50,768 bases of DNA. Origin: a phage. Both the position numbers and the translations under genes were made by a program. Location: the sequence record NC_101820.1. One strand, given 5' to 3'. Positions 1-50,768 of the stretch are shown one piece after another. The notes below the pieces were generated by a model. The model ran no database searches and was not told the DNA's origin. It worked only from the letters and a program-made list of their open reading frames with translations. The number at the start of each line of letters is the position of its first letter. Within the stretch, counting starts at the first letter, position 1.

Positions 1-3
1 ACA

Positions 4-31
4 TTGACACGCACCAAATAGCTTTTATAAT
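4..31 (+). promoter_or_regulatory. sigma70-type consensus promoter (TTGACA, 16-nt spacer, TATAAT)
   Basis: TTGACA at 4-9 and TATAAT at 26-31, directly upstream of the first plus-strand gene. Confidence 0.6.
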
Positions 32-62
32 GCGCCAACAGTCAACAACTGGAGGAAAGGAA

Positions 63-527
63 ATGGAACAGAAGACCACTAAGGACTATTGCGATTGGCT
101 TCGCGAGCTTGGTCGCCGCCTGGCTAGTGGCGATATTGAAGAGTATAAAATGTCACTAATTGACCTGGCCGGAATGTTAAGCGGTGACGACTGCTACAAG
201 ATCACGCGCAGTTCATCCTACAGCCGGACCATTATCAACCGCGTTCCAGAAGTAAGGGCCGCAGGTCGGGTAAGCATCAAGGTAGAGGAAACGGAAGATG
301 ATAAATTTTACGTTTTCCGCATGGTCCGCGAATCGAAAAGGAAAATCATCACACCCGAAGAATTGCCAGCCATCAAGGCAAGGGCGATCAAAAAGTTTGC
401 CGATCGCATACTGGCAGCAATCCCGAATATCGTTGACCTGGAAGGGGATAAACTGGCTGGGGCTTGCGAGGGCGTAAGCCGCTACCAGGATATGATCCGC
501 GAAATCATCAAAGAGGAAGAGCAATGA
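63..527 (+). CDS. hypothetical early protein (154 aa), first gene after the consensus promoter
   Basis: ATG at 63 preceded by GGAGGAAAGG; in frame with track ORF 30..527; no recognisable domain. Confidence 0.6.
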   Translation: MEQKTTKDYCDWLRELGRRLASGDIEEYKMSLIDLAGMLSGDDCYKITRSSSYSRTIINRVPEVRAAGRVSIKVEETEDDKFYVFRMVRESKRKIITPEELPAIKARAIKKFADRILAAIPNIVDLEGDKLAGACEGVSRYQDMIREIIKEEEQ

Positions 528-796
528 AAAAGGCATTAATCAGCGTTCTGGCGGCAATGGCATTCCTGACCGGATGCAAAGAAGATGGCGCGCATGTTGG
601 CAATGTGCAGATGGCTAACCCTGGTGATGACTACAGCGTAAGGGAGCTATTCACCGCTGACGGTTGCACCGTTTACCGATTCTATGACGATCGCACTGTT
701 TACTTCACCAACTGCAAGGGCACTACTAGCTGGGAAGTGTCGAAAAGCAATGGCAAAAGCACGAAGACAGAACATATGACCGTCGAGACAAAATAG
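524..796 (+). CDS. small lipoprotein (signal peptide with lipobox LTGC)
   Basis: ATG overlaps the upstream stop (ATGA); N-terminus MKKALISVLAAMAFLTGC; in frame with track ORF 464..796. Confidence 0.6.
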   Translation: MKKALISVLAAMAFLTGCKEDGAHVGNVQMANPGDDYSVRELFTADGCTVYRFYDDRTVYFTNCKGTTSWEVSKSNGKSTKTEHMTVETK

Positions 797-836
797 CACT
801 TTTTGTTAAAACTCAAAAACGATAACCAGGCATAAT
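794..836 (+). promoter_or_regulatory. conserved 19-nt motif with -10-like CATAAT at offset +37
   Basis: TAGCACTTTTTGTTAAAAC starts with the TAG stop of the upstream gene; CATAAT at 831-836. Confidence 0.5.
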
Positions 837-839
837 ACA

Positions 840-1010
840 CACATAGACGGGCGGCAAGGATTGCTGCGGGAGAGGAGCGACGCAGGGGCTTGATCGAAGT
901 GTCAGGATTCCCAACCGTGAGGCCAGAACTATCACACTCGCCACCAGGCAGAACGCTAGATAGGTCACTGAACTGAGGCTACCGACGAAGTGAAGCCCGT
1001 CACCAAAGAT
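840..1010 (+). ncRNA. candidate structured GC-rich leader or small RNA
   Basis: About 170 nt of GC-rich sequence without a convincing ORF; terminal complementarity GACGGGC...GCCCGTC. Confidence 0.2.
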
Positions 1011-1038
1011 TAAACGGTTATTTATGTGAAAGGGGTTA

Positions 1039-1221
1039 ATGATGGATAAGATCATCAAAATGAGCGAAGTCAAGCCGGGAATGATGGTTAAGTTTGCTGG
1101 CAAATATCGCCTAGTGCTGGATAACTGCCGCAAAGAGAACATTCTTACAATTCGTGTAAATGGCAAGGCGCAGCTATTCGCCCCTAACGCAGATATTGAC
1201 GTTGAAGTTAGAATTAAGTAA
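1039..1221 (+). CDS. hypothetical small protein (60 aa)
   Basis: Track ORF; GGGG-rich RBS a few nt upstream of the ATG. Confidence 0.5.
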   Translation: MMDKIIKMSEVKPGMMVKFAGKYRLVLDNCRKENILTIRVNGKAQLFAPNADIDVEVRIK

Positions 1222-1236
1222 TTAGGAGAAATCACC

Positions 1237-2130
1237 ATGTTAAAACTTGCTGACATTAAATTCCCGATCACCTTCGAATCTCGCGGCATTGGTCATTACA
1301 TTTTTACCGATGAAAAAACATGCCATAAGGTTGATATGAATAGCGACAAACTAAGCCCATCAGACATGGAGATTGAACACTTCATTGATGCGCACAATAC
1401 GCAGTACAACGCACTTAAAGACTATGGCTATGCAATGCCAGGATATACCAGCTTCCACTACAAGCCATATAAAGGCCAGGTGTTGCCAGTGCGCTCACCG
1501 GAACGCGCAGAGATTCCGATGGTCGAGATGAAAACATGCGACTATAAAAAGCTGTGGTGCTTAAGTGTTGACAATATCAAGTATCCGATCACGTTCTACA
1601 CGGTTGGTAATTCAACGATTCGATTCACATCGCGCGACAATGGCGTTTATAGCGATGGTACGAAATCAGAGTTGAAAGTTGATTTCTTTGTCAACGGTCA
1701 CAATAGATACAATCCGCACAACGAAAAAGATAAAGTGTATTACGTGGAAGATATTACAAAACACTTATTTGGAGAAACTCCATTCGGCGGCGGTAAGACG
1801 TCAATTCAAAAAATCATTGGCGATGAGATCCACAAAGCGGCTGCCGAAATGAAAGCGCCTGGAGGCTGGCGTATTGACAAGAGCGCATTTGCAAATCAAG
1901 AAATCGTAACGCAGGGCGCAATTGAAGATATGCCAGTTGCAGCCACTCTAAAAGGAGTCCGGCTTGATGACGGCACCTGGTATGAAGTAACGGCTACACC
2001 AAAGACGATCGAGATTCATGATGACGTTGTTATCCTTCTGCTTCACTACGGCGGCTATAAAAACCGGACGATTGCAGGTGAGATCAGCATTAAGCGCGGA
2101 ACGATGGTTAAGTGGAAGGTGAAGATTTGA
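1237..2130 (+). CDS. hypothetical protein (297 aa) with an internal duplicated segment
   Basis: Track ORF with RBS AGGAG; IKFPITFESRG...YIFTDEK recurs as IKYPITFYTVG...IRFTSRD. Confidence 0.7.
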   Translation: MLKLADIKFPITFESRGIGHYIFTDEKTCHKVDMNSDKLSPSDMEIEHFIDAHNTQYNALKDYGYAMPGYTSFHYKPYKGQVLPVRSPERAEIPMVEMKTCDYKKLWCLSVDNIKYPITFYTVGNSTIRFTSRDNGVYSDGTKSELKVDFFVNGHNRYNPHNEKDKVYYVEDITKHLFGETPFGGGKTSIQKIIGDEIHKAAAEMKAPGGWRIDKSAFANQEIVTQGAIEDMPVAATLKGVRLDDGTWYEVTATPKTIEIHDDVVILLLHYGGYKNRTIAGEISIKRGTMVKWKVKI

Positions 2131-2206
2131 GTTTGCTCACTGCGGCGCACGTCGCCGCATGGATCGGATTGTTTTCCTACCTGTTTAGCTTTTATTGAGG
2201 TGAGAG

Positions 2207-2359
2207 ATGGCTACCTGGATTTTGCTGATTCTTATGATTGATGGCGGCGTTGACCATATCGAAATGAATAGCCAGCAATCTTGCATTGAGGCACGAGAGC
2301 AGATCAAGAACAACAACTGGTTTTATGTGTACACTCACACGCTATGTATTAAGAAATAG
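2207..2359 (+). CDS. small hydrophobic peptide (50 aa), paralog of 3648..3809
   Basis: ATG at 2207 after GAGGTGAGAG; MATWILLILMIDGG...; its TAG stop is the first triplet of the 19-nt motif. Confidence 0.4.
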   Translation: MATWILLILMIDGGVDHIEMNSQQSCIEAREQIKNNNWFYVYTHTLCIKK

Positions 2360-2398
2360 CACTTTTTGTTAAAACTCAAATGTGGGGCCAGGTATAAT
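2357..2398 (+). promoter_or_regulatory. conserved 19-nt motif with TATAAT inside a GGCC hairpin loop
   Basis: TAGCACTTTTTGTTAAAAC at 2357; GGCCaggTATAATGGCC with TATAAT at 2393-2398. Confidence 0.5.
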
Positions 2399-2428
2399 GG
2401 CCTCACTTTCAACGAAGGAGATAAAACG

Positions 2429-2650
2429 ATGTACATTAAAAAGAAGATGAAATGCGTTTCCGTTAACTATGCTTGCTCTGGCATGTTCAAGCCTGGCGAA
2501 ATCTATACGGCGCAAAAACTGAAAACATCAACCGGATCTTTTTACGTGAGCAATAGTAAGGGGCATCGCATGTTCCTGAACGGCGGCGAAGGCACTAAGG
2601 TTATGGCACACGCTATGGTAATGGCTGAATTTGAGGAAGTGAAACAATGA
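2429..2650 (+). CDS. small protein (73 aa), member of a four-copy family
   Basis: ATG at 2429 after AAGGAG; shares the KCV...FYLNGG-GT...AEFEEVK pattern with 2647..2892. Confidence 0.55.
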   Translation: MYIKKKMKCVSVNYACSGMFKPGEIYTAQKLKTSTGSFYVSNSKGHRMFLNGGEGTKVMAHAMVMAEFEEVKQ

Positions 2651-2892
2651 TCATTGAAAACAATTTTCTTTGCGTTAAGAGCAATAGACCATTCTTCACA
2701 CCTGGCAAGGTGTACCAGGGCAAGAAGGACACAAGAGATGGTCACTCTTATCATGTTCACTGCAACAACGGATACAAGTTTTACCTTAACGGCGAGAATG
2801 GAACTGAGATTGTTGCGTTTGAAAACGTAGTTGCAGAGTTCGAGCAGATTACAGACGCGGAATTTGAGGAAGTGAAAGATGAAAACAAATAA
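2647..2892 (+). CDS. small protein (81 aa), tandem paralog of 2429..2650
   Basis: ATGA overlap with upstream gene; LCVKSN...FYLNGENGT...AEFEQ...AEFEEVK. Confidence 0.6.
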   Translation: MIIENNFLCVKSNRPFFTPGKVYQGKKDTRDGHSYHVHCNNGYKFYLNGENGTEIVAFENVVAEFEQITDAEFEEVKDENK

Positions 2893-5700: not shown

Positions 5701-5949
5701 ATGGTTTTTAACGCATTGAAACGACTGTTTAAGCCGGAATACCGGATCGTATTTTGCCGCGACTGTTCTACTTATCATGTGCAGAGACGCAGCTTAGGCG
5801 GCAATTGGCACTATGTTACAGATGACTTTTTCGGCATCATTGCCACTGAATTTAAGTGTTATAGCGATGCTTATATGTATGTCAAGAAGCGCCACCGCTT
5901 ACGCAAGTGTCGTTTTTCCGCACTGATTCACTTTAATGATTGTTACTGA
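5701..5949 (+). CDS. hypothetical Cys-rich protein (82 aa)
   Basis: Track ORF; CRDC and C...C pairs suggest a zinc ribbon. Confidence 0.45.
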   Translation: MVFNALKRLFKPEYRIVFCRDCSTYHVQRRSLGGNWHYVTDDFFGIIATEFKCYSDAYMYVKKRHRLRKCRFSALIHFNDCY

Positions 5950-8536: not shown

Positions 8537-9064
8537 ATGGCTAAAAACGTTGAGCCTGCTGTAAAGGCATTAAATTTCAAAGAGTTATATAATAAAACTT
8601 ATGGCGATATTGTCACGCTAAACAACCGCCACAAGTACACGCCGGAACAGGTTTTTGATATGGCGATCCGCTATTTCACTTGGGCAGAAGAGAATCACAT
8701 CCAGGCGGCTGAAACTGCTTCCTTTCAGGGTGACGTGTACGAGAGCAGAGTTTACAAGCCTCGCGTTTTCACGGTTAACGGATTCAGCTTGTATCTCGGC
8801 GTGACTGAGGCTGCCGTAAGCAAATGGCGTAAAGAGCCTGGATTCTGCGATGTGATGGAGTTTGTTGATAAAGTAATTTACGAGCAAAAATTCCAGCTTG
8901 CGGCAAATAACATGATTAATGCTGGATTTATCGGTAAAGAGATCGGCGTAGAGAAGCCAGCAACAGTGAGCGTTGAAGCTAGCGCGGCAGCTAATGCAAG
9001 CATTGACGCAGTAACTGCCGATGAGGTGAAAGAGGCTGTTATTGATATTCTGGAGCAACTTTAA
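8537..9064 (+). CDS. terminase small subunit
   Basis: ATG 8537 after AAAGGAGG; sits directly upstream of and overlapping (TAATG) the large terminase; size and position typical. Confidence 0.65.
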   Translation: MAKNVEPAVKALNFKELYNKTYGDIVTLNNRHKYTPEQVFDMAIRYFTWAEENHIQAAETASFQGDVYESRVYKPRVFTVNGFSLYLGVTEAAVSKWRKEPGFCDVMEFVDKVIYEQKFQLAANNMINAGFIGKEIGVEKPATVSVEASAAANASIDAVTADEVKEAVIDILEQL

Positions 9065-10632
9065 TGATCATATGGGAAGATTTGACGGCGGCGCAAAAGC
9101 GAGCCATTAAAGAAATCAGTGAGCATTCATTCGAAAAGATGATCAGAATCTGGTTTCAGTTATTGCAGGGGCAAAAATTCCAGAGCAACTGGCATTTTAG
9201 CTTATTGTGCAGTGAGGTAGAGAAGATCATCAATGGAGAGTCGCAGAATGTGATTTTCAACATTACGCCAGGTAGCGGTAAGACTGAGATTTTCTCGATC
9301 CACATGTCACCCTACGCGTCATTGAAAAGTCGGAAGGTGAGAAACCTTAACCTTTCGTTTAGTGATGGACTTGTCCAGCAAAACAGCAACAGGATAAAGG
9401 AGATTATCGGTTCTCCTGAGTGGCAAGAGCTATGGCCAGGAAAACTGGCAAAGGCGAGCGCAAAAGATCTCATAGTTACGGATGGCGGCAAGGTTAAATT
9501 GCAAGTTAACTCACGTTCTATTGGCGGACAGGTAACAGGTTTGCGTGGCGGCTATATGGACGATGGTTTTACTGGTATGCTGGTTCTGGACGATCCAGAC
9601 AAGCCGGATGATATGCTTTCTAAGGTCAAGCGTGAGGCGATCCACATGCGGTTAAAAAACACAGTGCGATCGCGTCGAATGAAAGACACTACGCCGATTG
9701 TTATGGTGCAACAGCGACTACACGTTAATGATTCCACCTGGTTCATGCTTAATGGCGGGATGGGCGGTATTGAGTTTAAAGTTGTGAGCATTCCTGCGCT
9801 GGTTACGAAAGAATACCGCGAAACGCTTCCTGATTGGTTGAAGCCTGAATTTGATCGTGATGTGTTGTCAAGTAAGCCAGTGATGATAGATGGCGTTGCT
9901 CATTATTCATTTTGGCCTGCGAAGGAAAGCGCGGAGGAATTGCTTGCATTGCGCAATGCAGATCCTTATACGTTCGCCAGTCAGTACCAACAGCAACCCA
10001 TCGCGCTTGGCGGCAACGTGTTTAAAACAGAGTGGTTCCAGTATTACGGCAGCGGCGAAAAATGCGCACTTCCTAAACCGGATCGCTTTGAATACACATT
10101 TATTACTGGTGATACCGCGCAGAAGGCCGGAGAGCTTAACGACTATTCAGTTTTTTGTTATTGGGGGATGTATAAGAATCGCGTTTACTTCATTGATGGC
10201 ATTCGCGGAAAGTGGGAAGCGCCGGATCTTGAATTAAATTTTATTGCCTTCGTTAATCAGTGCTGGAAGCGCAATAAGGAGTGTGGCAGCTTGCGACGTA
10301 TCCACATTGAGGATAAGGCCAGCGGCACGGGTTTGATTCAGGGGGCCAAAAAGAAGATCCCGATTGATATAAATCCCGTTCAGCGAAGCAATGACAAGGT
10401 AACGCGAGCAATGGACGCCGCGCCAGTAATGAGGGCCGGACGTGTGGCACTGCCAGAAAGTCATCCCATGTTACCTGAGATACTGGCAGAGGTTGCAGCG
10501 TTCACTTTTGACGATTCTCATCCCCATGATGATATTGTCGATAATATAGTTGATGCTGTTAACGTCGAAATGAACTTGGCTGATGATCCGGTAGCAAGGA
10601 TGAAAAAGCTGGCTGGTCTACGCAATAAATAG
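9064..10632 (+). CDS. terminase large subunit
   Basis: 522 aa; P-loop-like TPGSGKTE near N-terminus and acidic nuclease-like C-terminus (DDSHPHDDIVDNIVD); synteny with portal. Confidence 0.85.
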   Translation: MIIWEDLTAAQKRAIKEISEHSFEKMIRIWFQLLQGQKFQSNWHFSLLCSEVEKIINGESQNVIFNITPGSGKTEIFSIHMSPYASLKSRKVRNLNLSFSDGLVQQNSNRIKEIIGSPEWQELWPGKLAKASAKDLIVTDGGKVKLQVNSRSIGGQVTGLRGGYMDDGFTGMLVLDDPDKPDDMLSKVKREAIHMRLKNTVRSRRMKDTTPIVMVQQRLHVNDSTWFMLNGGMGGIEFKVVSIPALVTKEYRETLPDWLKPEFDRDVLSSKPVMIDGVAHYSFWPAKESAEELLALRNADPYTFASQYQQQPIALGGNVFKTEWFQYYGSGEKCALPKPDRFEYTFITGDTAQKAGELNDYSVFCYWGMYKNRVYFIDGIRGKWEAPDLELNFIAFVNQCWKRNKECGSLRRIHIEDKASGTGLIQGAKKKIPIDINPVQRSNDKVTRAMDAAPVMRAGRVALPESHPMLPEILAEVAAFTFDDSHPHDDIVDNIVDAVNVEMNLADDPVARMKKLAGLRNK

Positions 10633-15256: not shown

Positions 15257-15274
15257 GTTTAACAAAAAGTGCTA
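15257..15274 (-). promoter_or_regulatory. conserved motif, inverted, in the leader of the major capsid gene
   Basis: GTTTAACAAAAAGTGCTA on the plus strand about 45 nt upstream of the ATG; followed by hairpin GGCCGTT/AACGGCC. Confidence 0.4.
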
Positions 15275-15319
15275 TCATCTAGGCCGTTACATTTAACGGC
15301 CTTTTATGGAGGAAACAAA

Positions 15320-19008: not shown

Positions 19009-19026
19009 TTTTAACAAAAAGTGCTA
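19009..19026 (-). promoter_or_regulatory. conserved motif, inverted, abutting the RBS of the tail chaperone gene
   Basis: TTTTAACAAAAAGTGCTA immediately followed by TAAGGAG and the ATG at 19042. Confidence 0.4.
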
Positions 19027-19041
19027 TAAGGAGATCTTAAG

Positions 19042-24943: not shown

Positions 24944-25060
24944 ATGTGGCGTGATATTTTTTATTATAATGACGGTAAGTTATTTTGGGCTGTAGACGTA
25001 GGAAGAAGGATAAAGAAAGGAAGTGAGGCAGGAAGCGGCAGAAAAGATGATAGAGATTGA
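24944..25060 (+). pseudogene. remnant of an HNH (HNH_3-type) homing endonuclease N-terminus
   Basis: 38-codon ORF MWRDIFYYNDGKLFWAVDVGRRIKKGSEAGS... matches the N-terminal pattern of phage HNH endonucleases (from memory); no catalytic region follows. Confidence 0.35.
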
Positions 25061-25102
25061 AGTTTTAAACAAATTCCACATAAACCACGGAAAGTAGATT
25101 TA

Positions 25103-25125
25103 ACCAGCATTGCGCTGGTTTTTTT
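25103..25125 (+). terminator. intrinsic terminator
   Basis: CCAGC attgc GCTGG followed by TTTTTTT. Confidence 0.6.
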
Positions 25126-25174
25126 GTGCATTTATAATGTGCAAACCAAGAAACAGCACAAAAGGTTAAAAGTC

Positions 25175-28100
25175 ATGGCTAAATATATGATAAGCGGCAG
25201 TAAGGGCGGAAGCAAAAAGCCATACGTGCCAAAAGAGATGGAAGATAACCTGATCTCGATAAACAAGATTAAAGTTTTGCTGGCTGTATCTGATGGCGAG
25301 TGCGATCCAGATTTCACGTTGCGCGATCTTTATCTTGATGATGTTCCGGTTATTGCCAGCGATGGCACTGTTAACTACGAGGGAGTTACGGCTGAATATA
25401 GACCAGGCACACAGACGCAAGATTACATCCAGGGGTTTACTGACACATCAAGCGAGGTGACAGTTTCGCGAGACATTACAACAGACAATCCCTATATTAT
25501 CTCTGTGACAAACAAAAATCTTTCTGCAATAAGAATCAAGATTCTGATGCCAGTTGGCATAAAACAGGAGGATAACGGCGATCTTGTTGGCGTAAGGGTT
25601 GAGTATGCCGTAGATATGGCTATTGATGGCGGTTCTTATAGCGAGGTTATGAGAGATGTAATTGACGGCAAGACAAGATCAGGATACGACCGCAGCAGAA
25701 GGATTGATCTTCCTAAGTTTGATGAGCGCGTTTTAATCCGAGTAAAGCGACTGACTCCAGACAGCACATCTTCAAAGGTGACTGATAAAATCAAGCTGCA
25801 AAGTTACGCTGAGGTTGTTGATGCAAAATTCCGTTATCCTCTGACTGGCCTTGTATTCGTAGAATTTGACAGCGAATTGTTTCCTACGCAAATCCCTAAC
25901 ATTTCTATAAAAAAGAAATGGAAGATTATTAATGTGCCAAGCAACTATGATCCAATATCAAGAGAATATCACGGGTCATGGGATGGGACTTTTAAAAAAG
26001 CGTGGTCAAATAATCCGGCTTGGGTTCTTTATGATCTGGTGACAAATCAGCGTTACGGACTTGATCAGCGAGAGTTAGGAATACAGATCGACAAGTGGAG
26101 CTTATACGAGGCGGGCGTTTACTGTGATCAGAAAGTTCCAGACGGCAAGGGTGGTACAGAGCCTCGCTACCTATGCGATGTGGTGATTCAGAATCAAGTT
26201 GAGGCTTATCAGCTAATCCGTGACATTTGCTCAATCTTTCGCGGAATGAGTTTTTGGAATGGTGAGAGCTTATCAATCGTGATTGATAAGCCGCGCGATC
26301 CATCATACGTGTTTACTAATGAAAACGTCATCAACGGTGATTTTCAGTACATAAACGCAAGCGAAAAAAGCATGTACACGCAGTGTAACGTGACGTTTGA
26401 CGACGAACAAAACATGTATCAGCAGGACGTAGAGGGGGTTTTTGATACTGAGGCTGCATTACGATTTGGATACAATCCAACAAGCATTACAGCGATCGGT
26501 TGTACACGCAGGAGCGAAGCGAATCGTCGCGGTCGGTGGGTTTTGAAAACAAACCTTAGAAGCACTACTGTAAACTTTGCTACCGGACTAGAGGGGATGA
26601 TTCCATCAATAGGTGATGTGATTGCTATCGCTGATAATTTTCAGAGCAGCAACCTAACGTTAAACCTATCGGGCCGAGTGATGGAAGTTTCAGGATTGCA
26701 GGTTTTCGTTCCGTTTAAGGTTGATGCTCGCCCTGGTGATTTTATTATCATCAACAAGCCGGACGGCAAGCCAGTTAAGCGCACGATCTCAAAGGTTAGC
26801 GCAGACGGAAAAACCATTGAGTTAAATATTGGATTTGGTTTTGATGTTAAGCCTGATACTGTTTTTGCGATTGACCGTACTGATCTTGCGTTGCAGCAAT
26901 ACGTTGTGACAACCATCAGCAAGGGTGATGACGAAAACGAGTTTACCTATTCAATCACGGCTGTAGAGTACGATCCGAACAAATACGACGAGATTGATTA
27001 TGGAGTAAACATTGATGACAGACCGACTTCAATTGTTCAGCCTGACGTGATGGCAGCGCCTGAGAACGTTAAGATCTCATCTTATTCTCGCGTCGTGCAG
27101 GGTGTTAGCGTTGAGACTATGGTTGTTTCATGGGATAAGGTTCCTTACGCATCGCTTTATGAAATGCAGTGGCGAAAAGGTGATGGTAACTGGCTGAATA
27201 CGCCGCAGACCGCTAACAAAGAGATAGAGGTAGAAGGGATTTACTCTGGCAACTACCAAGTAAGGGTGAGATCCGTTTCTGCAAGCGGTAACGCTTCCCC
27301 GTGGTCAAAGATTGCAACCGCCACTCTGACAGGTAAAGTTGGCGAGCCAGGAGCGCCGATTAATCTTACGGCTTCTGATAATGAAGTTTTTGGCATTCGT
27401 GTCAAATGGGGTATGCCGGAAGGATCAGGCGATACGGCTTACATTGAGCTTCACCAATCGCCAGACGGAACGGTTGAAAACTCAAGTCTGCTTACGCTGA
27501 TTCCATATCCTCAATATGAGTATTGGCATAGCACGTTACCAGCGGGGCAAGTTGTATGGTATAGAATCCGCAGCGTTGACAGAATAGGCAACGTTTCCAG
27601 TTGGACTGACTTTGTTCGCGGTATGGCGTCAGATGATGTTGAATCTGTTTTGGGCGACATTCTGGACAAGATTTTTGATACAGAAGCTGGTCAAGAAATC
27701 AAAGAGAACGCCATAGACAGCGCCAATAAAATCAAAGACCAGGCACAATCAATCATACAGAACGCGTTGGCAAATGATGCAGATGTGAAGTGGACGCGAG
27801 TGCAAAACGGAAAGCGCAAGGCTGAATATGGTCATGCTCTTGAGCTTATCGCCAATGAAACAGAAGCGCGCGTAACTCAAATCGAAGAGTTAAGGGCATC
27901 AATTGATGGCGAGATAACATCAAGCATCAAGACAGTGCAGGAGGCAATTGCCACTGAATCAGAGACGCGAGCGACTCAAATTCAGCAGCTTGATTCTAAA
28001 TTCACAAAAGAAATCGACGGCGTGCGCAAGGATACTTCTGCAAGCATTAGCGATGTAAGGCAGACAATCACTAACGAGTCAGAAGCGCGCGCTCAGGCCG

Positions 28101-29950: not shown

Positions 29951-29998
29951 TACTCCTTAGTTGTTGTTGGATGCAACTATACACGATCTTGGGCATCG

Positions 29999-30017
29999 CG
30001 TTTAGCAAAAAGTGCTA
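29999..30017 (-). promoter_or_regulatory. conserved motif variant with TATAGT in a GATGC/GCATC hairpin loop, driving the lipoprotein operon
   Basis: Minus strand reads TAGCACTTTTTGCTAAAC ... TATAGT ... RBS ... ATG at 29950. Confidence 0.45.
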
Positions 30018-30019
30018 TT

Positions 30020-30390
30020 TGTTATTTTTTGTTTTCCGGTGTTATCGAATTTAAGACGGCGTAAATTTAGCGCAAAATTTAGACAACATAAGATCAATAA
30101 ACAATCAATAAAATAGATATATACATATAAAATCAATAGTTTATTTATTTATGTATGTATATTTGTTTTTTCTTGTTATCTGCGTTTCTTGTGGTTTTGG
30201 TTGTTTGTGGTGATTTTTCTTTCTGAGTATCTGTATGTGCCATCATTCATGTGTATGTATATAATCCGGCGTATCTGAGAGAACAGGGGAACAAGAAAAA
30301 TAACACATATTAATCATTAACTTATGAGTCAAATCTGTTTTCTTGCCATCTGAGAACGTTTAGAAAACAGAAAAAACAAAACAGCTATTG
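30020..30390. repeat. AT-rich intergenic region with short direct repeats (candidate origin or regulatory region)
   Basis: Repeats of ATCAATA/CAATCA/TAATCA, TGTATGTATAT (x2), ATCTGAGA(G)AAC (x2) and GT-rich runs. Confidence 0.4.
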
Positions 30391-30391
30391 A

Positions 30392-30420
30392 CTAAATCAA
30401 CCAAATGGCTACAATGCACG
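30392..30420 (+). promoter_or_regulatory. sigma70-like promoter (TTGACT, 16-nt spacer, TACAAT)
   Basis: Located about 30 nt upstream of the exonuclease gene. Confidence 0.5.
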
Positions 30421-30445
30421 CATAAAGCAACAAGGAGCATTAAAG

Positions 30446-36084: not shown

Positions 36085-37014
36085 TTATAGCAGTGATTCA
36101 GGCTTGTAGATTTTTCTTTCTACGCCATGTTTAAAATTATCGTTAACAGGCATCATTATGTCAAGCCCTCTTTCCTCTGCCGCGATTATCACATCACGAT
36201 AATCTTTCCGGCAGACTACGCGCATTCTTCTTTCTCCTTTATATCTATGCGCAACCATTTCAAGATTTGAAGGAGTAAAACAGGCCCACACCTCTTGACC
36301 AGTTGATAAATGAACATGCTGAGAATCAACCCAATCAAGGCACAAATAGATCGTCTTATCTGTACTACCTGTTTTAACAACAGATCCGCGCGTGTAGTCG
36401 CGAGCTAAAAACCAATCCTTTCCATCCTCATCAATGAAAAGCACGTTACACATTTCATCATCCAGCCCGTCATCATGCACCAGGTGACAAGGTAGCGCGT
36501 GAATGTATCGACCATCCTTGACGCCGCAATCATAATGACAATCTTCCGGCGGATATATCCCCTCATAAACGCTTAAAGGTGTGCGATCGAATTTTAATGT
36601 TTTTGCCATCACTTTTTCGCAACATTCATGACTTGCCTGTTTCCCGAACGAGTAACCAGAAGAACGCGAAGCGCGTTTGTTTGCTCTGATCCTGTAATCT
36701 TGCGGCACTTTTCCGAGGAAGCGGCCCAAAATGTTGATGGCCTCGCTGTAAGGTTCGCCAGTTAATTTCATTAACCAACCGATCCCCGTGTCGTTGCCGC
36801 ACACGTTGCAGATCGCGCCGCCGTCGCCCTCTTCATTTAGCTTATCAGTCCATCTAAAACGATCCTTACCGCCGCAGTGTGGGCAAGGTTGATGCTTTTT
36901 GTTGAAAACATCGCTATGCAGCCCGCAAATGCTTTGTAGTGCTTCACGCCATAACCCCTTCATATATGGCAAAACATCTTCTTTCTGATAGGTCATAAAG
37001 TTTTCAGTATTCAT
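36085..37014 (-). CDS. DNA primase with N-terminal zinc ribbon
   Basis: CPHCGGKDRFRW...CNVCG resembles the primase zinc-binding ribbon; start refined to ATG 37014. Confidence 0.7.
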   Translation of the reverse strand: MNTENFMTYQKEDVLPYMKGLWREALQSICGLHSDVFNKKHQPCPHCGGKDRFRWTDKLNEEGDGGAICNVCGNDTGIGWLMKLTGEPYSEAINILGRFLGKVPQDYRIRANKRASRSSGYSFGKQASHECCEKVMAKTLKFDRTPLSVYEGIYPPEDCHYDCGVKDGRYIHALPCHLVHDDGLDDEMCNVLFIDEDGKDWFLARDYTRGSVVKTGSTDKTIYLCLDWVDSQHVHLSTGQEVWACFTPSNLEMVAHRYKGERRMRVVCRKDYRDVIIAAEERGLDIMMPVNDNFKHGVERKIYKPESLL

Positions 37015-37069: not shown

Positions 37070-37546
37070 TTAGCTATTCGTGCTGTTATCACCTTTGTAG
37101 AATCTTCCGCCTGGTTCGTAGTCTGAATTTTTGACTACGCGCAACATTTCGTATTTGTCGCAACGGGTAGTAAGAGGCTTGCCGTTAGAATCAAACCGCA
37201 GATCTGGACGACAAAACGAGGCGCGGTATCCTTTGCATCCATTATATTTGTAGTCGTTATGCACCTTTTGTGCTCCAGCGGCTGAAATCATACCACGCTT
37301 TCGCCATTGGTTAACGACTTGCTGAGATACGCGCAGACGTCGAGCCATAGCAGGAACACCGCCGTAATACTCGATCAGAATGTCAAGGCGAGATTTCAGG
37401 CTTGCTTTTACCTCATCTCGCAGGATAAGAAATCCGGTTCGGTGTTTTCGTGGTTTTTTGTCTTTACCTCGTCGCGTTCCGTTGTTACCGTTAATAGTGC
37501 GCTTGTCGATCTCACCCGTAGATACTGCAATTCGTGCATCTTTCAT
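37070..37546 (-). CDS. HTH DNA-binding protein (Cro/CI-like regulator candidate)
   Basis: GGVPAMARRLRVSQQVVNQWRKRGMIS helix-turn-helix-like segment; divergent from the helicase gene. Confidence 0.55.
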   Translation of the reverse strand: MKDARIAVSTGEIDKRTINGNNGTRRGKDKKPRKHRTGFLILRDEVKASLKSRLDILIEYYGGVPAMARRLRVSQQVVNQWRKRGMISAAGAQKVHNDYKYNGCKGYRASFCRPDLRFDSNGKPLTTRCDKYEMLRVVKNSDYEPGGRFYKGDNSTNS

Positions 37547-39631: not shown

Positions 39632-40050
39632 TGGCTATAACTGATAAAGGAGATTATCTTGAGTTTTACGAAAGAGATCCAACCGACACGAGAAAGGAAG
39701 TTAATCACCAGATAGATAGCTTTCAGTGGTTGACTTATGCTCATCCTTATTTGCTAGCGTGGCATACGGTAAACGAGAATGAGAAGTCGAAAGTAACGGC
39801 GATGATTGATCAGCAGTCCGGCTTGGTTAAGGGGGTAAGCGATTTCATCATCCTGATTGGTTCAAACGGAAAATACCCCTTTGCAGCGATTGAGATCAAA
39901 CGAGTTAATAAATCAGGCAAGGGGAAAGCATCACCAGTCAGCGATGAACAAAAGTCTTTTTTGCGTCGCGTTCGCAGCTTAGGAGGATTCGCTGCGGTCG
40001 CCTACGGATTTAATCAGTTTAAGTTAGCTATTGAATACATGCTTAAATAG
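39631..40050 (+). CDS. VRR-NUC domain nuclease
   Basis: 139 aa; D...AIEIKR pattern characteristic of VRR-NUC; ATGGC overlap with the helicase stop. Confidence 0.65.
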   Translation: MAITDKGDYLEFYERDPTDTRKEVNHQIDSFQWLTYAHPYLLAWHTVNENEKSKVTAMIDQQSGLVKGVSDFIILIGSNGKYPFAAIEIKRVNKSGKGKASPVSDEQKSFLRRVRSLGGFAAVAYGFNQFKLAIEYMLK

Positions 40051-40090
40051 CACTTTTTGTTAAAACTGGCGCGATGGATTGCGCCATAAT
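40048..40090 (+). promoter_or_regulatory. conserved 19-nt motif with GGCGC/GCGCC hairpin and CATAAT at offset +37
   Basis: TAG stop of the VRR-NUC gene is the first triplet; CATAAT at 40085-40090. Confidence 0.5.
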
Positions 40091-47197: not shown

Positions 47198-47216
47198 CTT
47201 TTAACAAAAAGTGCTA
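47198..47216 (-). promoter_or_regulatory. conserved 19-nt motif with GCCAGGTG/CACCTGGC hairpin and CATAAT at offset +37
   Basis: Minus strand TAGCACTTTTTGTTAAAAG then hairpin then CATAAT, CACATCGAAC, RBS and ATG 47144. Confidence 0.5.
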
Positions 47217-47930
47217 TTTTGAGTTTGACTCAAATACGGCGCGAGCAAAGCCGCGCGGAGTGAGGGAGCGGATCATCTTTGTGCGCGATGACTTGCCGCC
47301 AGTTTTGGCCCAGCCTGGATTATCTTTGTCTTCCTCTTTCGGCAGGATTAAAGCGCGTGGAGGAATAACAAAGCCATTGCCAGTCCAGAGGCACGTTTTC
47401 TTAAAGTAGCGATCCCGCGCCGGAATAATATCAGGGAAGTCGGGATGTTTATCATCTTCCGGCAGATAGCCAGCGTAATCGCACGGATGGAACGTATAAT
47501 CAGGTTTTCGCCATAACGTTGACAACTTGCCAACCGGATTTTCGATCATGTAAGGAACACCGAAATAATCAGCTATATCATCCGCGATTCTGCAAGTGTC
47601 GGCGGCCTCATCCTGGAACGATGGATTCTCAAGGCGTTTTTTGGCCCAATGGCGAGATCCGCTATTTGCAAGGTCGGTGCAAGGAGGGAACGCCATAATA
47701 AAATCAGGATTGCCCCACTCATTATTGATTGCCTTAACATAAAAAGCATCATCAATCCAGACGTTAACGTATTCGATATTCTCATGCTGTATGCGCACTG
47801 ACTGGTAATCACCGTGATCGCCGCCGTCAGCATTAAAGCAAATGCACTTATAGCCATTATCAGCCCAATCTTTAACGGCTTTACCAGATCCATCAAATAG
47901 GGAGAATATTAAACCTTTATACATCGTCAT
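47214..47930 (-). CDS. C5-cytosine methyltransferase-like protein
   Basis: Motif I-like IFSLFDGSG, motif IV-like FPPCTDLANSG (catalytic Cys) and motif VI-like MIENPVG; start refined to ATG 47930. Confidence 0.55.
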   Translation of the reverse strand: MTMYKGLIFSLFDGSGKAVKDWADNGYKCICFNADGGDHGDYQSVRIQHENIEYVNVWIDDAFYVKAINNEWGNPDFIMAFPPCTDLANSGSRHWAKKRLENPSFQDEAADTCRIADDIADYFGVPYMIENPVGKLSTLWRKPDYTFHPCDYAGYLPEDDKHPDFPDIIPARDRYFKKTCLWTGNGFVIPPRALILPKEEDKDNPGWAKTGGKSSRTKMIRSLTPRGFARAVFESNSK

Positions 47931-48650: not shown

Positions 48651-48863
48651 TCATTTCTTATTTTTCATCTTAAATTTATGGCCTGGAACACCAGCACCAA
48701 TATAGCCATCGTTGTATTCCATTAAATAAAGGTGAAGGCCATTATCTGAAATTACATGAGGATCTTCTTTGAGATTTCCCATTAGTGGATATTCTTTTTC
48801 GCGCGTAAATCTCCAAGTTGAGTTATAAGTTTCTACGCATTTAAGTTTTAATTGCTTTGCCAT
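48651..48863 (-). CDS. small protein (70 aa), member of the four-copy family
   Basis: LKCVETYNS...DNGLHLYLMEYNDG resembles 2429..2650 and 2647..2892. Confidence 0.5.
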   Translation of the reverse strand: MAKQLKLKCVETYNSTWRFTREKEYPLMGNLKEDPHVISDNGLHLYLMEYNDGYIGAGVPGHKFKMKNKK

Positions 48864-49060
48864 TAGATGATCTCCATGTATGTTTCAAAGCCATTTAACT
48901 TGAACAGGCCGTTTTCACATTTGCGAACGTTCCAAGTTAGCCCTGAGTGGTACGCCTCCATATCATCAAGGTCAATGGTGATTTCAGCACCTTTCTTAAA
49001 CAAACATTTTTCGTGAGACTTGTCGCGCTTAACAACTTTAACATCAACCTGATTTTCCAT
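48863..49060 (-). CDS. small protein (65 aa), member of the four-copy family
   Basis: KCLFKKG...GLFKLNGFET pattern; leader ACAACAAACGAGGATTTAAAG nearly identical to that of plus-strand gene 3882. Confidence 0.5.
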   Translation of the reverse strand: MENQVDVKVVKRDKSHEKCLFKKGAEITIDLDDMEAYHSGLTWNVRKCENGLFKLNGFETYMEII

Positions 49061-49835: not shown

Positions 49836-50089
49836 TTTTTCTTCTCCTGCAATAAGCAAACATCATTGATAAAATCAGCACGGCCCTTAATGTTGCTGAT
49901 GTGGAACGTCTTTTCAGCGTACAGGCCATCACCTTCAATCACGATCATTACGCGAGTCGGTTTATTCACGGGCGCACACGAAAAGAGTGGTCGCGCCGGA
50001 AGAAATTTAGTGGTCACATCCAGGTTAGCCCTGGCGGCCCTGCAAAACGCCTCCGCCAGATCCAAATCATTTTCGGTAATCACCGCCAT
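49823..50089 (-). CDS. hypothetical protein (88 aa)
   Basis: Track ORF; ATGA overlap with the upstream gene. Confidence 0.5.
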   Translation of the reverse strand: MAVITENDLDLAEAFCRAARANLDVTTKFLPARPLFSCAPVNKPTRVMIVIEGDGLYAEKTFHISNIKGRADFINDVCLLQEKKKCWM

Positions 50090-50361
50090 TACTTCTTGAT
50101 CTCCTTACTGATAAATTTCAGCACCTGGCGCAAGAAAACTTCGTTGTTGATAGTCGCTGGCAATTCTTCTTTCACTTCTTGCGGCAGATAGATATTGCAG
50201 TGCCAGGTCAAGCAATCGTAGTTAATGCGATAAGAGCAAAGCCACTCGCAATCGTTATCTGCTTCCCATATGCAGAGTTGCAGAACATCGCCAAAATCTT
50301 CAACAGTCAGATCCAGACCGTGACGCTTAGCGAAATTGAAAGTGGTTTTGCTGATGTTCAT
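50089..50361 (-). CDS. hypothetical protein (90 aa), first gene of the leftward arm
   Basis: Track ORF; RBS CAGGAG; leader contains CATCGAAACGAACC. Confidence 0.55.
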   Translation of the reverse strand: MNISKTTFNFAKRHGLDLTVEDFGDVLQLCIWEADNDCEWLCSYRINYDCLTWHCNIYLPQEVKEELPATINNEVFLRQVLKFISKEIKK

Positions 50362-50418
50362 TTACTATCTCCTGAGCGGTTCGTTTCGATGTGTGTAATG
50401 TACCCGATCAGGCGGCCT

Positions 50419-50439
50419 GATTTTTAACAAAAAGTGTTA
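50419..50439 (-). promoter_or_regulatory. conserved motif variant (TAACACTTTTTGTTAAAAATC) with hairpin and TACATT
   Basis: Minus strand motif then TCAGG/CCTGA hairpin then TACATT, CATCGAAACGAACC, RBS and ATG 50361. Confidence 0.45.
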
Positions 50440-50471
50440 TTTGACGGTTAGCACCAGGATTGTGATCGAAA

Positions 50472-50559
50472 TAATCAAAAGTAATCATTCGTAATCAAAT
50501 CGCGTCAAAATGATGATTGCCTTTGCAAATTTGATGAGAAAAGCAATCACGTTTAATCA
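50472..50559. repeat. iteron-like array of TAATCA hexamers
   Basis: TAATCA at 50472, 50482 and 50492 (exact 10-bp phasing), CAATCA at 50544 and TAATCA at 50554, plus an inverted near-copy at about 50514. Confidence 0.5.
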
Positions 50560-50768
50560 TTGGTTGCAGGGGAGATAGTGAAACCTTCCCCTCTTGCCTC
50601 ACTTTTCCGCCTGGCTGTCAGTGGTTGTTGTCTTTTGTTCACCCCTGTTACCGATTTCAGGCGGCGTGTTTCCGCGCGGTTTTCCGGTGTAGCGAAAACG
50701 AAAAAAACAAAAAAATCCCTCTATAATACATTGAAAATAAAGATTATTTATTTATATATATCTATAAC

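What the first reader, a model, noticed from the sequence alone, without database searches (positions are those of the whole stretch)
50472..50559. TAATCA iterons phased at exactly 10 bp in the divergent control region
Three direct TAATCA copies sit at 50472, 50482 and 50492, one helical turn apart. Two more (CAATCA at 50544, TAATCA at 50554) are again 10 bp apart, with an inverted near-copy at about 50514. The region lies between the leftward early arm and, if the genome is circularly permuted, the rightward consensus promoter at 4-31. Related AATCA-containing repeats also occur in the AT-rich region 30020-30390. Same-face phasing is typical of cooperative binding by a regulator or replication initiator, so this may be an origin or master operator.
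Basis: seen in the sequence. Interest (0 to 1): 0.6.

Follow-up and report, generated by a model that had tools for sequence, protein, structure and literature searches.

The report
Likely DNA-packaging start site (pac)
The phased TAATCA repeats are real and conserved, but they most likely mark where this T1-like phage starts packaging its DNA into heads (the pac site), not a replication origin or master operator.

Summary
TAATCA sits at 50472, 50482 and 50492, CAATCA at 50544, TAATCA at 50554, and an inverted TGATTG at 50514. It is the only exact hexamer triple at any period of 7-14 bp in the window, and the densest YAATCA/TGATTR cluster in the genome.

The window is a Warwickvirus (Drexlerviridae, T1-like), 98.7% identical to swan01 over the queried end region (50100-50768).

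The repeats lie in a 184-bp cassette (about 50441-50624). This cassette is present in this divergent control region but absent from its paralogue at 29951-30445.

In relatives, genome or record ends fall inside the homologous cassette:
- T1: base 1 of the record, followed by the annotated terminal redundancy.
- TLS: restriction-mapped pac end.
- MSK: PhageTerm peak.
- SU57, G29-2, haarsle and XY3: record ends.

XY3 has an identical small terminase (TerS). It is linearised at the equivalent of 50577|50578, inside a conserved GGGGAGATAGTGAAAC box 18 bp right of the last repeat.

The cassette and the window's P22-gp3-type TerS allele occur in exactly the same 60 of 50,697 phage records.

Best reading: this is the pac region, with the repeats as the TerS assembly array (confidence about 0.6). 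The origin and operator readings are weaker. A different phased repeat, TGTTnnC x3, is shared by both control regions and is the better origin or regulator candidate.

The parts
50472..50497 (+). Three exact TAATCA copies at 50472, 50482 and 50492 (10-bp period); on the minus strand, TGATTA x3.
   Evidence: Invariant in 10 distinct cassette sequences, while the spacers vary at 50478 and 50490.
50514..50519 (+). Inverted copy, TGATTG, within ATGATGATTG. This is the orientation used by the T1, TLS and MSK repeats.
   Evidence: T1 base 1 and TLS base 1 align to about 50516 and about 50527.
50544..50559 (+). Second pair: CAATCA (50544) and TAATCA (50554), 10 bp apart. 50544 is C or T in relatives.
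50457..50468 (+). Degenerate copies GGATTG (50457) and TGATCG (50463, contains a GATC Dam site), just left of the array. They are 9 bp from the first TAATCA, not exactly in phase.
   Evidence: GGATTGTGA is also conserved in the other cassette type.
50569..50584 (+). Conserved box GGGGAGATAGTGAAAC. The predicted first packaging cut is at about 50576-50578.
   Evidence: XY3 (TerS 100% identical, cassette 96% identical) is linearised at ...caggggagata|gtgaaacc = window 50577|50578. G29-2 is linearised at ggaggggat|agagaaac. The haarsle record starts 8 nt further left. It is not a significant hairpin (z = 0.37).
50441..50624 (.). The whole 184-bp cassette, here called the pac cassette. It is an insert specific to this control region relative to the paralogous region at 29951-30445.
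   Evidence: alignment gap; found at 96% identity or more in exactly 60 phage records.
50397..50440 (-). Context: the leftward promoter-like element. It consists of the family repeat ATAACACTTTTTGTTAAAA (50422-50440), a palindromic spacer (50407-50421) and a -10-like TACATT (50397-50402).
   Evidence: The 21-nt repeat was described for phage TLS (PMC11447400).
8537..9064 (+). Small terminase (TerS) of the P22 gp3 family; the proposed binder of the array.
   Evidence: PF16677 at 3.8e-11. PDB 3p9a at 1.7e-15. Co-distributed with the cassette in the same 60 records.
9064..10632 (+). Large terminase (TerL) with a nuclease domain; the proposed cutter.
   Evidence: PF17289 Terminase_6C at 8.6e-11.
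50626..50652 (+). Context and rival element: TGTTGTC, TGTTCAC and TGTTACC at an exact 10-bp period. It is shared with the paralogous region (30020-30043).
   Evidence: exactly 2 hits in the window, 0.01 expected..

Best explanation
The TAATCA/CAATCA/TGATTG array is the recognition part of the phage's pac site.

Proposed mechanism:
1. On concatemeric DNA, the ring-shaped small terminase (TerS, P22 gp3 family, 8537..9064) binds the same-face hexamer copies spread over about 100 bp (50457-50559).
2. This positions the large terminase (9064..10632) to make the first cut about 18 bp to the right, in the conserved box GGGGAGAT^AGTGAAAC (about 50577).
3. Headful packaging then runs rightward, across the window end into the rightward gene arm. 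Later cuts are sequence-independent, which gives terminal redundancy and partial permutation.

Shown here: the array, its significance and conservation, its uniqueness in the genome, the mapping of relatives' genome ends into the cassette, and its co-occurrence with the TerS allele.

Inferred: that TerS is the binder, the exact cut in this phage, and the direction of packaging.
For: (1) Ends of related phages map into the homologous cassette, 160-240 bp right of the first leftward gene.
- T1: record base 1 is followed by the annotated terminal redundancy 1..2800. It lies at gatgTGATT|G among TGATTG copies spaced 24, 30 and 21 bp.
- TLS: base 1 is the restriction-mapped pac end. The published pac-HindIII fragment is about 5,882 bp, and the record has HindIII at 5876 and EcoRV at 2733. 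The end lies between TGATTG copies.
- MSK: the published PhageTerm forward peak at 36,862 (p = 1.6e-9) lies 222 bp from the leftward gene, flanked by TGATT copies.
- SU57: the end was chosen from PhageTerm output plus a coverage step, 3 bp after a TGATT.
- G29-2, XY3 and haarsle are different isolates with separately deposited records. Their records break within 9 nt of one another in the conserved box. The G29-2 authors state that contigs were linearised where most reads ended abruptly.

(2) The YAATCA/TGATTR cluster at this locus is the genome-wide maximum in the window, FritzSarasin and JK16 (6 copies each), T1 (5) and TLS (4).

(3) The cassette is single-copy. It is missing from the otherwise paralogous control region.

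(4) The cassette (96% identity or more) and TerS (98% identity or more) occur in exactly the same 60 of 50,697 phage records, with no TerS in the 80-95% identity band. Two other Warwickvirus phages, MatMar and WaterSpirit, match only the flanks of this region. MatMar carries a different cassette and a TerS only 66% identical; neither phage is among the 60 records.

(5) The motif positions are conserved while the spacers vary.

(6) The SU57 paper states that the pac site of T1 and T1-like phages lies in this untranslated region (PMC7718038).
Against: - No binding or packaging data exist for this phage. Record ends are indirect evidence, and the linearisation methods for XY3 and haarsle are unknown.
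- T1 and TLS base 1 map 50-60 bp left of the XY3/G29-2 break. Either the mapping is at restriction-map resolution or there are several cuts.
- The three phased copies are in the opposite orientation to the TGATTG copies of T1, TLS and MSK.
- Phages with the other cassette type (pSf-1, MatMar) have only 3 copies, which is not above chance. The repeats may therefore be dispensable, and the conserved box could be the true recognition site.
- The homologous P22 TerS recognises a single 22-bp site inside its own gene. No P22-like pac core is enriched here.
- Cassette-TerS co-occurrence could simply reflect shared descent of one sub-clade.
Confidence: 0.6

Rival explanations
1. Operator or upstream activating array. 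A phage-encoded regulator binds the phased copies cooperatively and controls the adjacent leftward promoter, or the divergent early promoters.
For: The array begins about 30 bp upstream of the leftward promoter repeat (50422-50440), at roughly -80 to -170 from its -10 element. At the same position other lineages carry operator-like palindromes: TATTCC x2/GGAATA x2 in Hanrivervirus and T1, and AGACCGATTGGTCT x2 in TLS. A weak rightward promoter-like site (TTAGCA-16-AATAAT, 50448-50475) overlaps the first copy.
Against: The paralogous control region has the same promoter layout without the cassette. The motif does not cluster at any of the other 19 promoter repeats. No DNA-binding domain was found in 18 of the small proteins of the two flanking gene arms that were scanned. 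The neighbouring genes are swapped in JK16 and L199 while the cassette is kept. I saw no such motif upstream of the only HTH protein's own gene.
Confidence: 0.15
2. Replication origin. The TAATCA copies are iterons for a phage initiator next to an AT-rich unwinding region.
For: Phased direct repeats lie about 190 bp from a stretch with GC of 0.21-0.24. The cumulative GC-skew minimum falls at the window junction, but this is confounded by the switch in transcription direction there.
Against: The ends of relatives map here, which fits packaging rather than replication. No initiator-type protein was found; the primase, two helicases and VRR-NUC protein have no recognised origin-binding domain. 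DnaA boxes are not enriched. A better iteron-like candidate exists: TGTTnnC x3 at an exact 10-bp period. It is present in both control regions, with inverted xxAACA copies on the far side of the AT-rich stretch. The TLS authors reported no lambda-type iterons.
Confidence: 0.08
3. Accessory architectural site within pac. The copies bind a host or phage DNA-bending protein, or simply form a bent tract, while TerS reads the conserved GGGGAGATAGTGAAAC box.
For: The box is conserved across cassette types, and the record breaks fall inside it. Copy number and orientation of the hexamers vary between lineages. From memory, GTAAT-N5-GTAAT (50481-50495) resembles the CpxR tandem GTAAA-N5-GTAAA at 8 of 10 positions.
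Against: I saw no IHF consensus match on reading the cassette by eye. The CpxR resemblance is recalled, not tested. The hexamer cluster is the genome-wide maximum in five genomes from two subfamilies.
Confidence: 0.12

Closest known systems
pac regions of coliphages T1 and TLS (Drexlerviridae)
   Same: Same genomic position: the large divergent non-coding region, 160-200 bp right of the first leftward gene. Same TGATTR/YAATCA motif cluster. Homologous TerS, 55% identical for T1.
   Different: In T1 and TLS the copies are mostly TGATTG on the + strand, at 11-30 bp spacings. Here three copies are inverted and spaced at exactly 10 bp. Published proposals for the recognition sequence were different: AGATTT for TLS and ATATA repeats for T1. 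No paper found here names this motif.
Phage P1 pac site (recalled from memory, not tested)
   Same: Short hexamers (TGATCA/G) in two groups either side of the cleavage region, bound by the small packaging subunit. The phage has its own Dam-type methylase, as this phage does (40104..40856; homologue annotated in FritzSarasin).
   Different: Only one copy here (TGATCG, 50463) contains GATC. In this cassette type all copies lie on one side of the predicted cut. The TerS families are unrelated.
SPP1 pacL-pacC-pacR (recalled from memory, not tested)
   Same: Helically phased short repeats on the non-packaged side, a defined cut site, and TerS ring binding.
   Different: A different TerS family. No clear set of repeats on the right-hand (pacR) side in this cassette type.
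P22 pac site
   Same: TerS is a true homologue of P22 gp3 (PF16677; PDB 3p9a). Both phages package by the headful mechanism.
   Different: P22 pac is a single asymmetric 22-bp site inside gene 3. Here the site is intergenic, 8.7 kb upstream of terS across the circular junction (plus the ~226 bp the window lacks), and repeated. The P22 core is not enriched.

Membership tests
pac site of a headful-packaging phage | The phage encodes TerS and TerL of a headful type. | tested here: met
   TerS matches PF16677 and PDB 3p9a; TerL matches PF17289. T1 and TLS are documented headful packagers.
pac site of a headful-packaging phage | The physical end of the first headful maps to the site. | tested here: inconclusive
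   Met in relatives: T1, TLS, MSK, SU57, G29-2, XY3 and haarsle. No read data or virion-end data exist for this phage itself.
pac site of a headful-packaging phage | A single site per genome. | tested here: met
   The cassette is absent from the paralogous region. One place per record, apart from the split at the XY3 record ends. The motif cluster is unique.
pac site of a headful-packaging phage | Specific binding by TerS. | not testable with these tools
   Only co-distribution is available: the same 60 records carry the cassette and this TerS allele.
P22-type pac (22-bp site within terS) | A match to the P22 pac core AAGATTTATCTG, located in the terS gene. | tested here: not met
   67 matches at up to 3 mismatches against 63.8 expected; none lies among the TAATCA repeats or in the conserved box (nearest 50432-50443, in the promoter repeat). 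The site is intergenic.
Iteron-type replication origin | Direct repeats next to an AT-rich unwinding region, plus a cognate initiator gene. | tested here: not met
   Repeats and an AT-rich stretch are present. No initiator-like protein was found among those scanned.
Iteron-type replication origin | Supports replication, or shows a marker-frequency peak. | not testable with these tools
   GC skew follows the direction of transcription and cannot discriminate.
Operator array of a phage regulator | Sites overlap or abut the core elements of the regulated promoter. | tested here: not met
   The copies lie about 80-170 bp upstream of the leftward -10 element and more than 160 bp from the rightward TATAAT at 50722.
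Operator array of a phage regulator | A cognate DNA-binding regulator is identifiable and co-varies with the site. | tested here: not met
   The only HTH protein found is 37070..37546. It shows no discriminating pattern across genomes, and I saw no TAATCA-type motif upstream of its own gene.

The most novel reading that the evidence does not exclude
T1-family phages use a two-part pac site: an array of helically phased YAATCA/TGATTR hexamers read by a P22-gp3-type TerS, plus a separate conserved cut box (GGGGAGAT^AGTGAAAC) that is cleaved at near-nucleotide precision. On this reading the array-plus-TerS pair is exchanged as a specificity unit among Drexlerviridae. It would show that a gp3-family TerS can read multi-copy short repeats far from its own gene, unlike the single 22-bp site of P22. 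It would also finally define the T1 pac sequence.
Probability: 0.4. Interest if true: 0.5.

Novelty: new member of a known kind. Interest (0 to 1): 0.4.

Why it matters
T1-like phages are common laboratory and fermentation contaminants and are candidates for phage therapy. In the papers read here, their pac site has been placed only roughly and never defined as a sequence.

A concrete recognition array plus a cut position (about 50577) would:
- make packaging specificity, transduction risk and genome-end conventions for Drexlerviridae directly testable;
- allow pac-plasmid or packaging-based engineering;
- warn annotators that phased repeats in a divergent control region need not be an origin or an operator.

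Tried and rejected
- **Finding a co-varying binder by whole-genome comparison** (window against FritzSarasin, JK16, MatMar, pSf-1). The phages with the other cassette type differ almost everywhere, so no single protein stood out. The comparison did rule out the two neighbouring genes as required partners.
- **Pfam scans** of 18 small proteins from the two flanking gene arms, plus the HTH protein at 37070..37546: no DNA-binding domains except in that Cro/YdaS-like protein.
- **Rfam** on the whole intergenic region: only chance snoRNA hits, E > 0.3.
- **The apparent hairpin at 50569-50594**: not better than shuffles (z = 0.37). It is treated as a sequence box, not a structure.
- **Exact triple-repeat search in IMG/VR**: over 100 unrelated tandem-repeat hits, uninformative.
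- **Metagenome scan with a flank pattern**: 104 hits, only 3 homologous.
- **P22 pac core search**: at chance level.
- **DnaA boxes**: at chance level.
- **GC skew**: follows transcription direction and cannot separate an origin from divergent transcription.
- **Host-factor sites** (IHF, CRP, Fur, CpxR), checked by eye from recalled consensus sequences: no convincing match. The CpxR-like GTAAT-N5-GTAAT is only 8 of 10.
- **A fourth in-phase copy**: I first read TGATCG as one. It starts at 50463, 9 bp from the first TAATCA, so I dropped the claim.
- **Papers not held**: the T1 genome paper (Roberts 2004) and the Rtp paper (Wietzorrek 2006).

Full report
**Observation.** The stated copies are all present: TAATCA at 50472, 50482 and 50492, CAATCA at 50544, TAATCA at 50554, and the inverted TGATTG at 50514. 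TAATCA as a word is only mildly over-represented in the window (49 copies against 36 expected). The arrangement is exceptional. It is the only exact hexamer triple at any fixed period of 7-14 bp in 50.8 kb. Local-composition shuffles give 0.057 such triples for periods 7-14 and 0.003 for periods 10-11. Six YAATCA/TGATTR copies in 110 bp is the genome-wide maximum; the next window has 3, and the largest value in 100 shuffles was 3.

**Identity and context.** The window is a T1-like phage: Drexlerviridae, Tempevirinae, Warwickvirus. Its end region (50100-50768) is 98.7% identical to swan01. In relatives the window end and start are contiguous, forming one non-coding region of about 690 bp. This region lies between a leftward arm of small genes (first gene 50089..50361) and a rightward arm (first gene 63..527). 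The window lacks about 226 bp of it.

The sequence just right of the leftward gene is a copy of a family-wide 19-21-nt repeat, ATAGCACTTTTTGTTAAAA, which was described for phage TLS. The window has 20 copies (0 of 100 shuffles reach 20). In most copies a -10-like hexamer follows 22 nt after TTGTTA, so they look like phage promoters. The TAATCA array starts about 30 bp upstream of the leftward one (50422-50440).

**Comparative anatomy.** Aligning this region (swan01 version) with the second divergent non-coding region of the genome (29951-30445) shows the two are paralogous on both flanks. The second region lacks a 184-bp insert, equivalent to window 50441-50624. That insert holds the whole TAATCA array plus a conserved box, GGGGAGATAGTGAAAC. 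The array is therefore not a general feature of the divergent control regions. It is a single-copy add-on.

Relatives fall into cassette types:
- **This type.** Found at 96% identity or more in 60 GenBank records, 2 IMG/VR contigs and 3 metagenome contigs. The hexamers are invariant while the spacers vary.
- **Hanrivervirus, and the Warwickvirus phage MatMar.** These carry a TATTCC x2 / GGAATA x2 palindrome followed by an inverted TAATCA pair (TTAATCAnnTGATTAA, or TGATTAATCA).
- **T1** has that palindrome plus four TGATTG copies.
- **TLS** has a different palindrome plus TGATCG, TGATCA, TGATTG and a TGATT run.

So the TGATTR/YAATCA motif is common to the family at this locus, with variable number, spacing and orientation. 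It is the top cluster in the T1 and TLS genomes too.

**What the locus does in relatives.**
- The T1 reference record annotates the terminal redundancy as 1..2800. Its base 1 falls inside this cassette, at gatgTGATT|G.
- The TLS record starts at the experimentally mapped pac end. The paper reports a pac-HindIII fragment of about 5,882 bp containing a 2.7-kb EcoRV piece, and the record has HindIII at 5876 and EcoRV at 2733. That end lies between TGATTG copies.
- For phage MSK, a published PhageTerm forward peak at 36,862 (p = 1.6e-9) lies in the homologous cassette. It is 222 bp from the first leftward gene and flanked by TGATT copies.
- The SU57 record end was chosen from PhageTerm output plus a coverage step. 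It is 239 bp from that gene and 3 bp after a TGATT. The authors state that the pac site of T1-like phages lies in this untranslated region.
- Three further records are different isolates deposited separately, and they are linearised within 9 nt of each other inside the conserved box: G29-2 at ggaggggat|agagaaac, haarsle 8 nt to the left, and XY3 at caggggagata|gtgaaacc. The G29-2 authors linearised contigs where most reads ended abruptly.

XY3 has a TerS identical to the window's and the same cassette. Its break corresponds to window 50577|50578, 18 bp right of the last TAATCA. By alignment, T1 and TLS base 1 map to about 50516 and about 50527.

**Link to the terminase.** TerS (8537..9064) belongs to the P22 gp3 family (PF16677; PDB 3p9a). 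In 50,697 phage records, the 60 that carry the cassette are exactly the 60 whose TerS is at least 98% identical. No TerS falls in the 80-95% identity band. Two other Warwickvirus phages, MatMar and WaterSpirit, match only the flanks of this region and are not among the 60 records. MatMar carries a different cassette and a TerS only 66% identical. This fits a matched site-protein pair, although shared descent could also produce it.

**Mechanism proposed.** TerS rings bind the same-face hexamers over about 100 bp (50457-50559). TerL cuts in the box at about 50577. Packaging then proceeds rightward by headfuls. Rightward direction is inferred from the T1 redundancy lying at the left end and from the MSK forward peak. 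Binding, the cut position and the direction in this phage are inferences.

**Rivals.**
- An operator or upstream activating array remains possible (0.15). Against it: the cassette-free paralogue, the absence of the motif at the other 19 promoter repeats, no cognate regulator, and neighbouring genes that are swapped while the cassette is retained.
- An origin is weaker still (0.08). There is no initiator and no DnaA-box enrichment, and GC skew is confounded by transcription direction.
- A better iteron-like system exists: TGTTnnC x3 at an exact 10-bp period, at 50626 and at 30020. These are the only two hits in the window, against 0.01 expected. Inverted xxAACA copies lie beyond the AT-rich stretch.
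- It is also possible that the box, not the hexamers, is what TerS reads, and that the hexamers are accessory (0.12).

**Comparison with known systems and verdict.** The layout resembles the P1 and SPP1 pac sites (recalled from memory). It differs from P22 pac despite the homologous TerS, and no P22 core is enriched. The location of pac in this untranslated region is already in the literature for T1-like phages. The specific hexamer array and the cut box are not described in the papers I could read. I rate this a new member of a known kind, of moderate interest (0.4).

Noticed in passing
window: 20 sites, e.g. 793-811(+), 2356-2374(+), 40047-40065(+), 47199-47217(-), 50422-50440(-): The family repeat ATAGCACTTTTTGTTAAAA (reported for TLS with unknown function) occurs 20 times. 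In most copies a -10-like (C/T)ATAAT follows exactly 22 nt after TTGTTA, often across a GC-rich palindrome. It looks like a phage-specific promoter class. Two copies (15257-15275 and 19009-19027) point against the late genes.
   Followed up: partly
window 29951-30445 and 50362-50768 (+1-62): Two paralogous divergent control regions share one layout: a leftward promoter repeat, TGTTnnC x3 at an exact 10-bp period (30020 and 50626; the only 2 hits, 0.01 expected), an AT-rich stretch (GC about 0.21), a GT-rich stretch, inverted xxAACA copies (e.g. 30279-30305), then a rightward sigma-70 promoter. This is a candidate origin or regulatory system. From memory, TGTTCACC (50636-50643) matches the P4 ori/crr iteron, and the T1 primase is annotated as P4-alpha-like.
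   Followed up: partly
window 50768 | 1 junction: Relatives (swan01, XY3, JK16 and others) have about 226 bp between the window's last and first bases. That stretch holds the GT-rich segment and the GTTAACAG/GTGAACAG/ATAACAG repeats. The window record appears cut or trimmed inside the control region.
   Followed up: partly
L005-L011, L028 (T1), L149 (TLS): just right of the leftward promoter repeat: Lineage-specific operator-like palindromes sit where this phage has none: TATTCC-N3-TATTCC...GGAATA-N3-GGAATA in Hanrivervirus, MatMar and T1, and AGACCGATTGGTCT x2 in TLS.
   Followed up: no
window 48863-49060 (-): A 65-aa protein matches PF25180 'Phage antiviral trigger protein Gp54' over its full length (E = 1.2e-37).
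   Followed up: no
window 50722-50760: The element TATAATACATTGAAAATAAAGATTATTTATTTATAT is highly conserved across cassette types and is echoed in the paralogous region (about 30115-30160). It has no obvious -35 partner.
   Followed up: no
L199 (metagenome contig OKTK01000001.1): This contig has the same cassette but an unrelated leftward flank. The mosaic junction lies close to the leftward promoter repeat, which suggests these repeats act as recombination boundaries.
   Followed up: no
GenBank records MG0656xx ('Campylobacter phage A143' and others): Fifteen to 22 UNVERIFIED 'Campylobacter jejuni phage' records are classified as Tempevirinae/Hanrivervirus and match coliphages closely. The host labels are probably wrong, or the samples were contaminated.
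   Followed up: no
L027 (pSf-1) 25054-25524: The TerS annotated in pSf-1 diverges completely after about residue 100 and is shorter than the others. This is probably a frameshift in the record.
   Followed up: no
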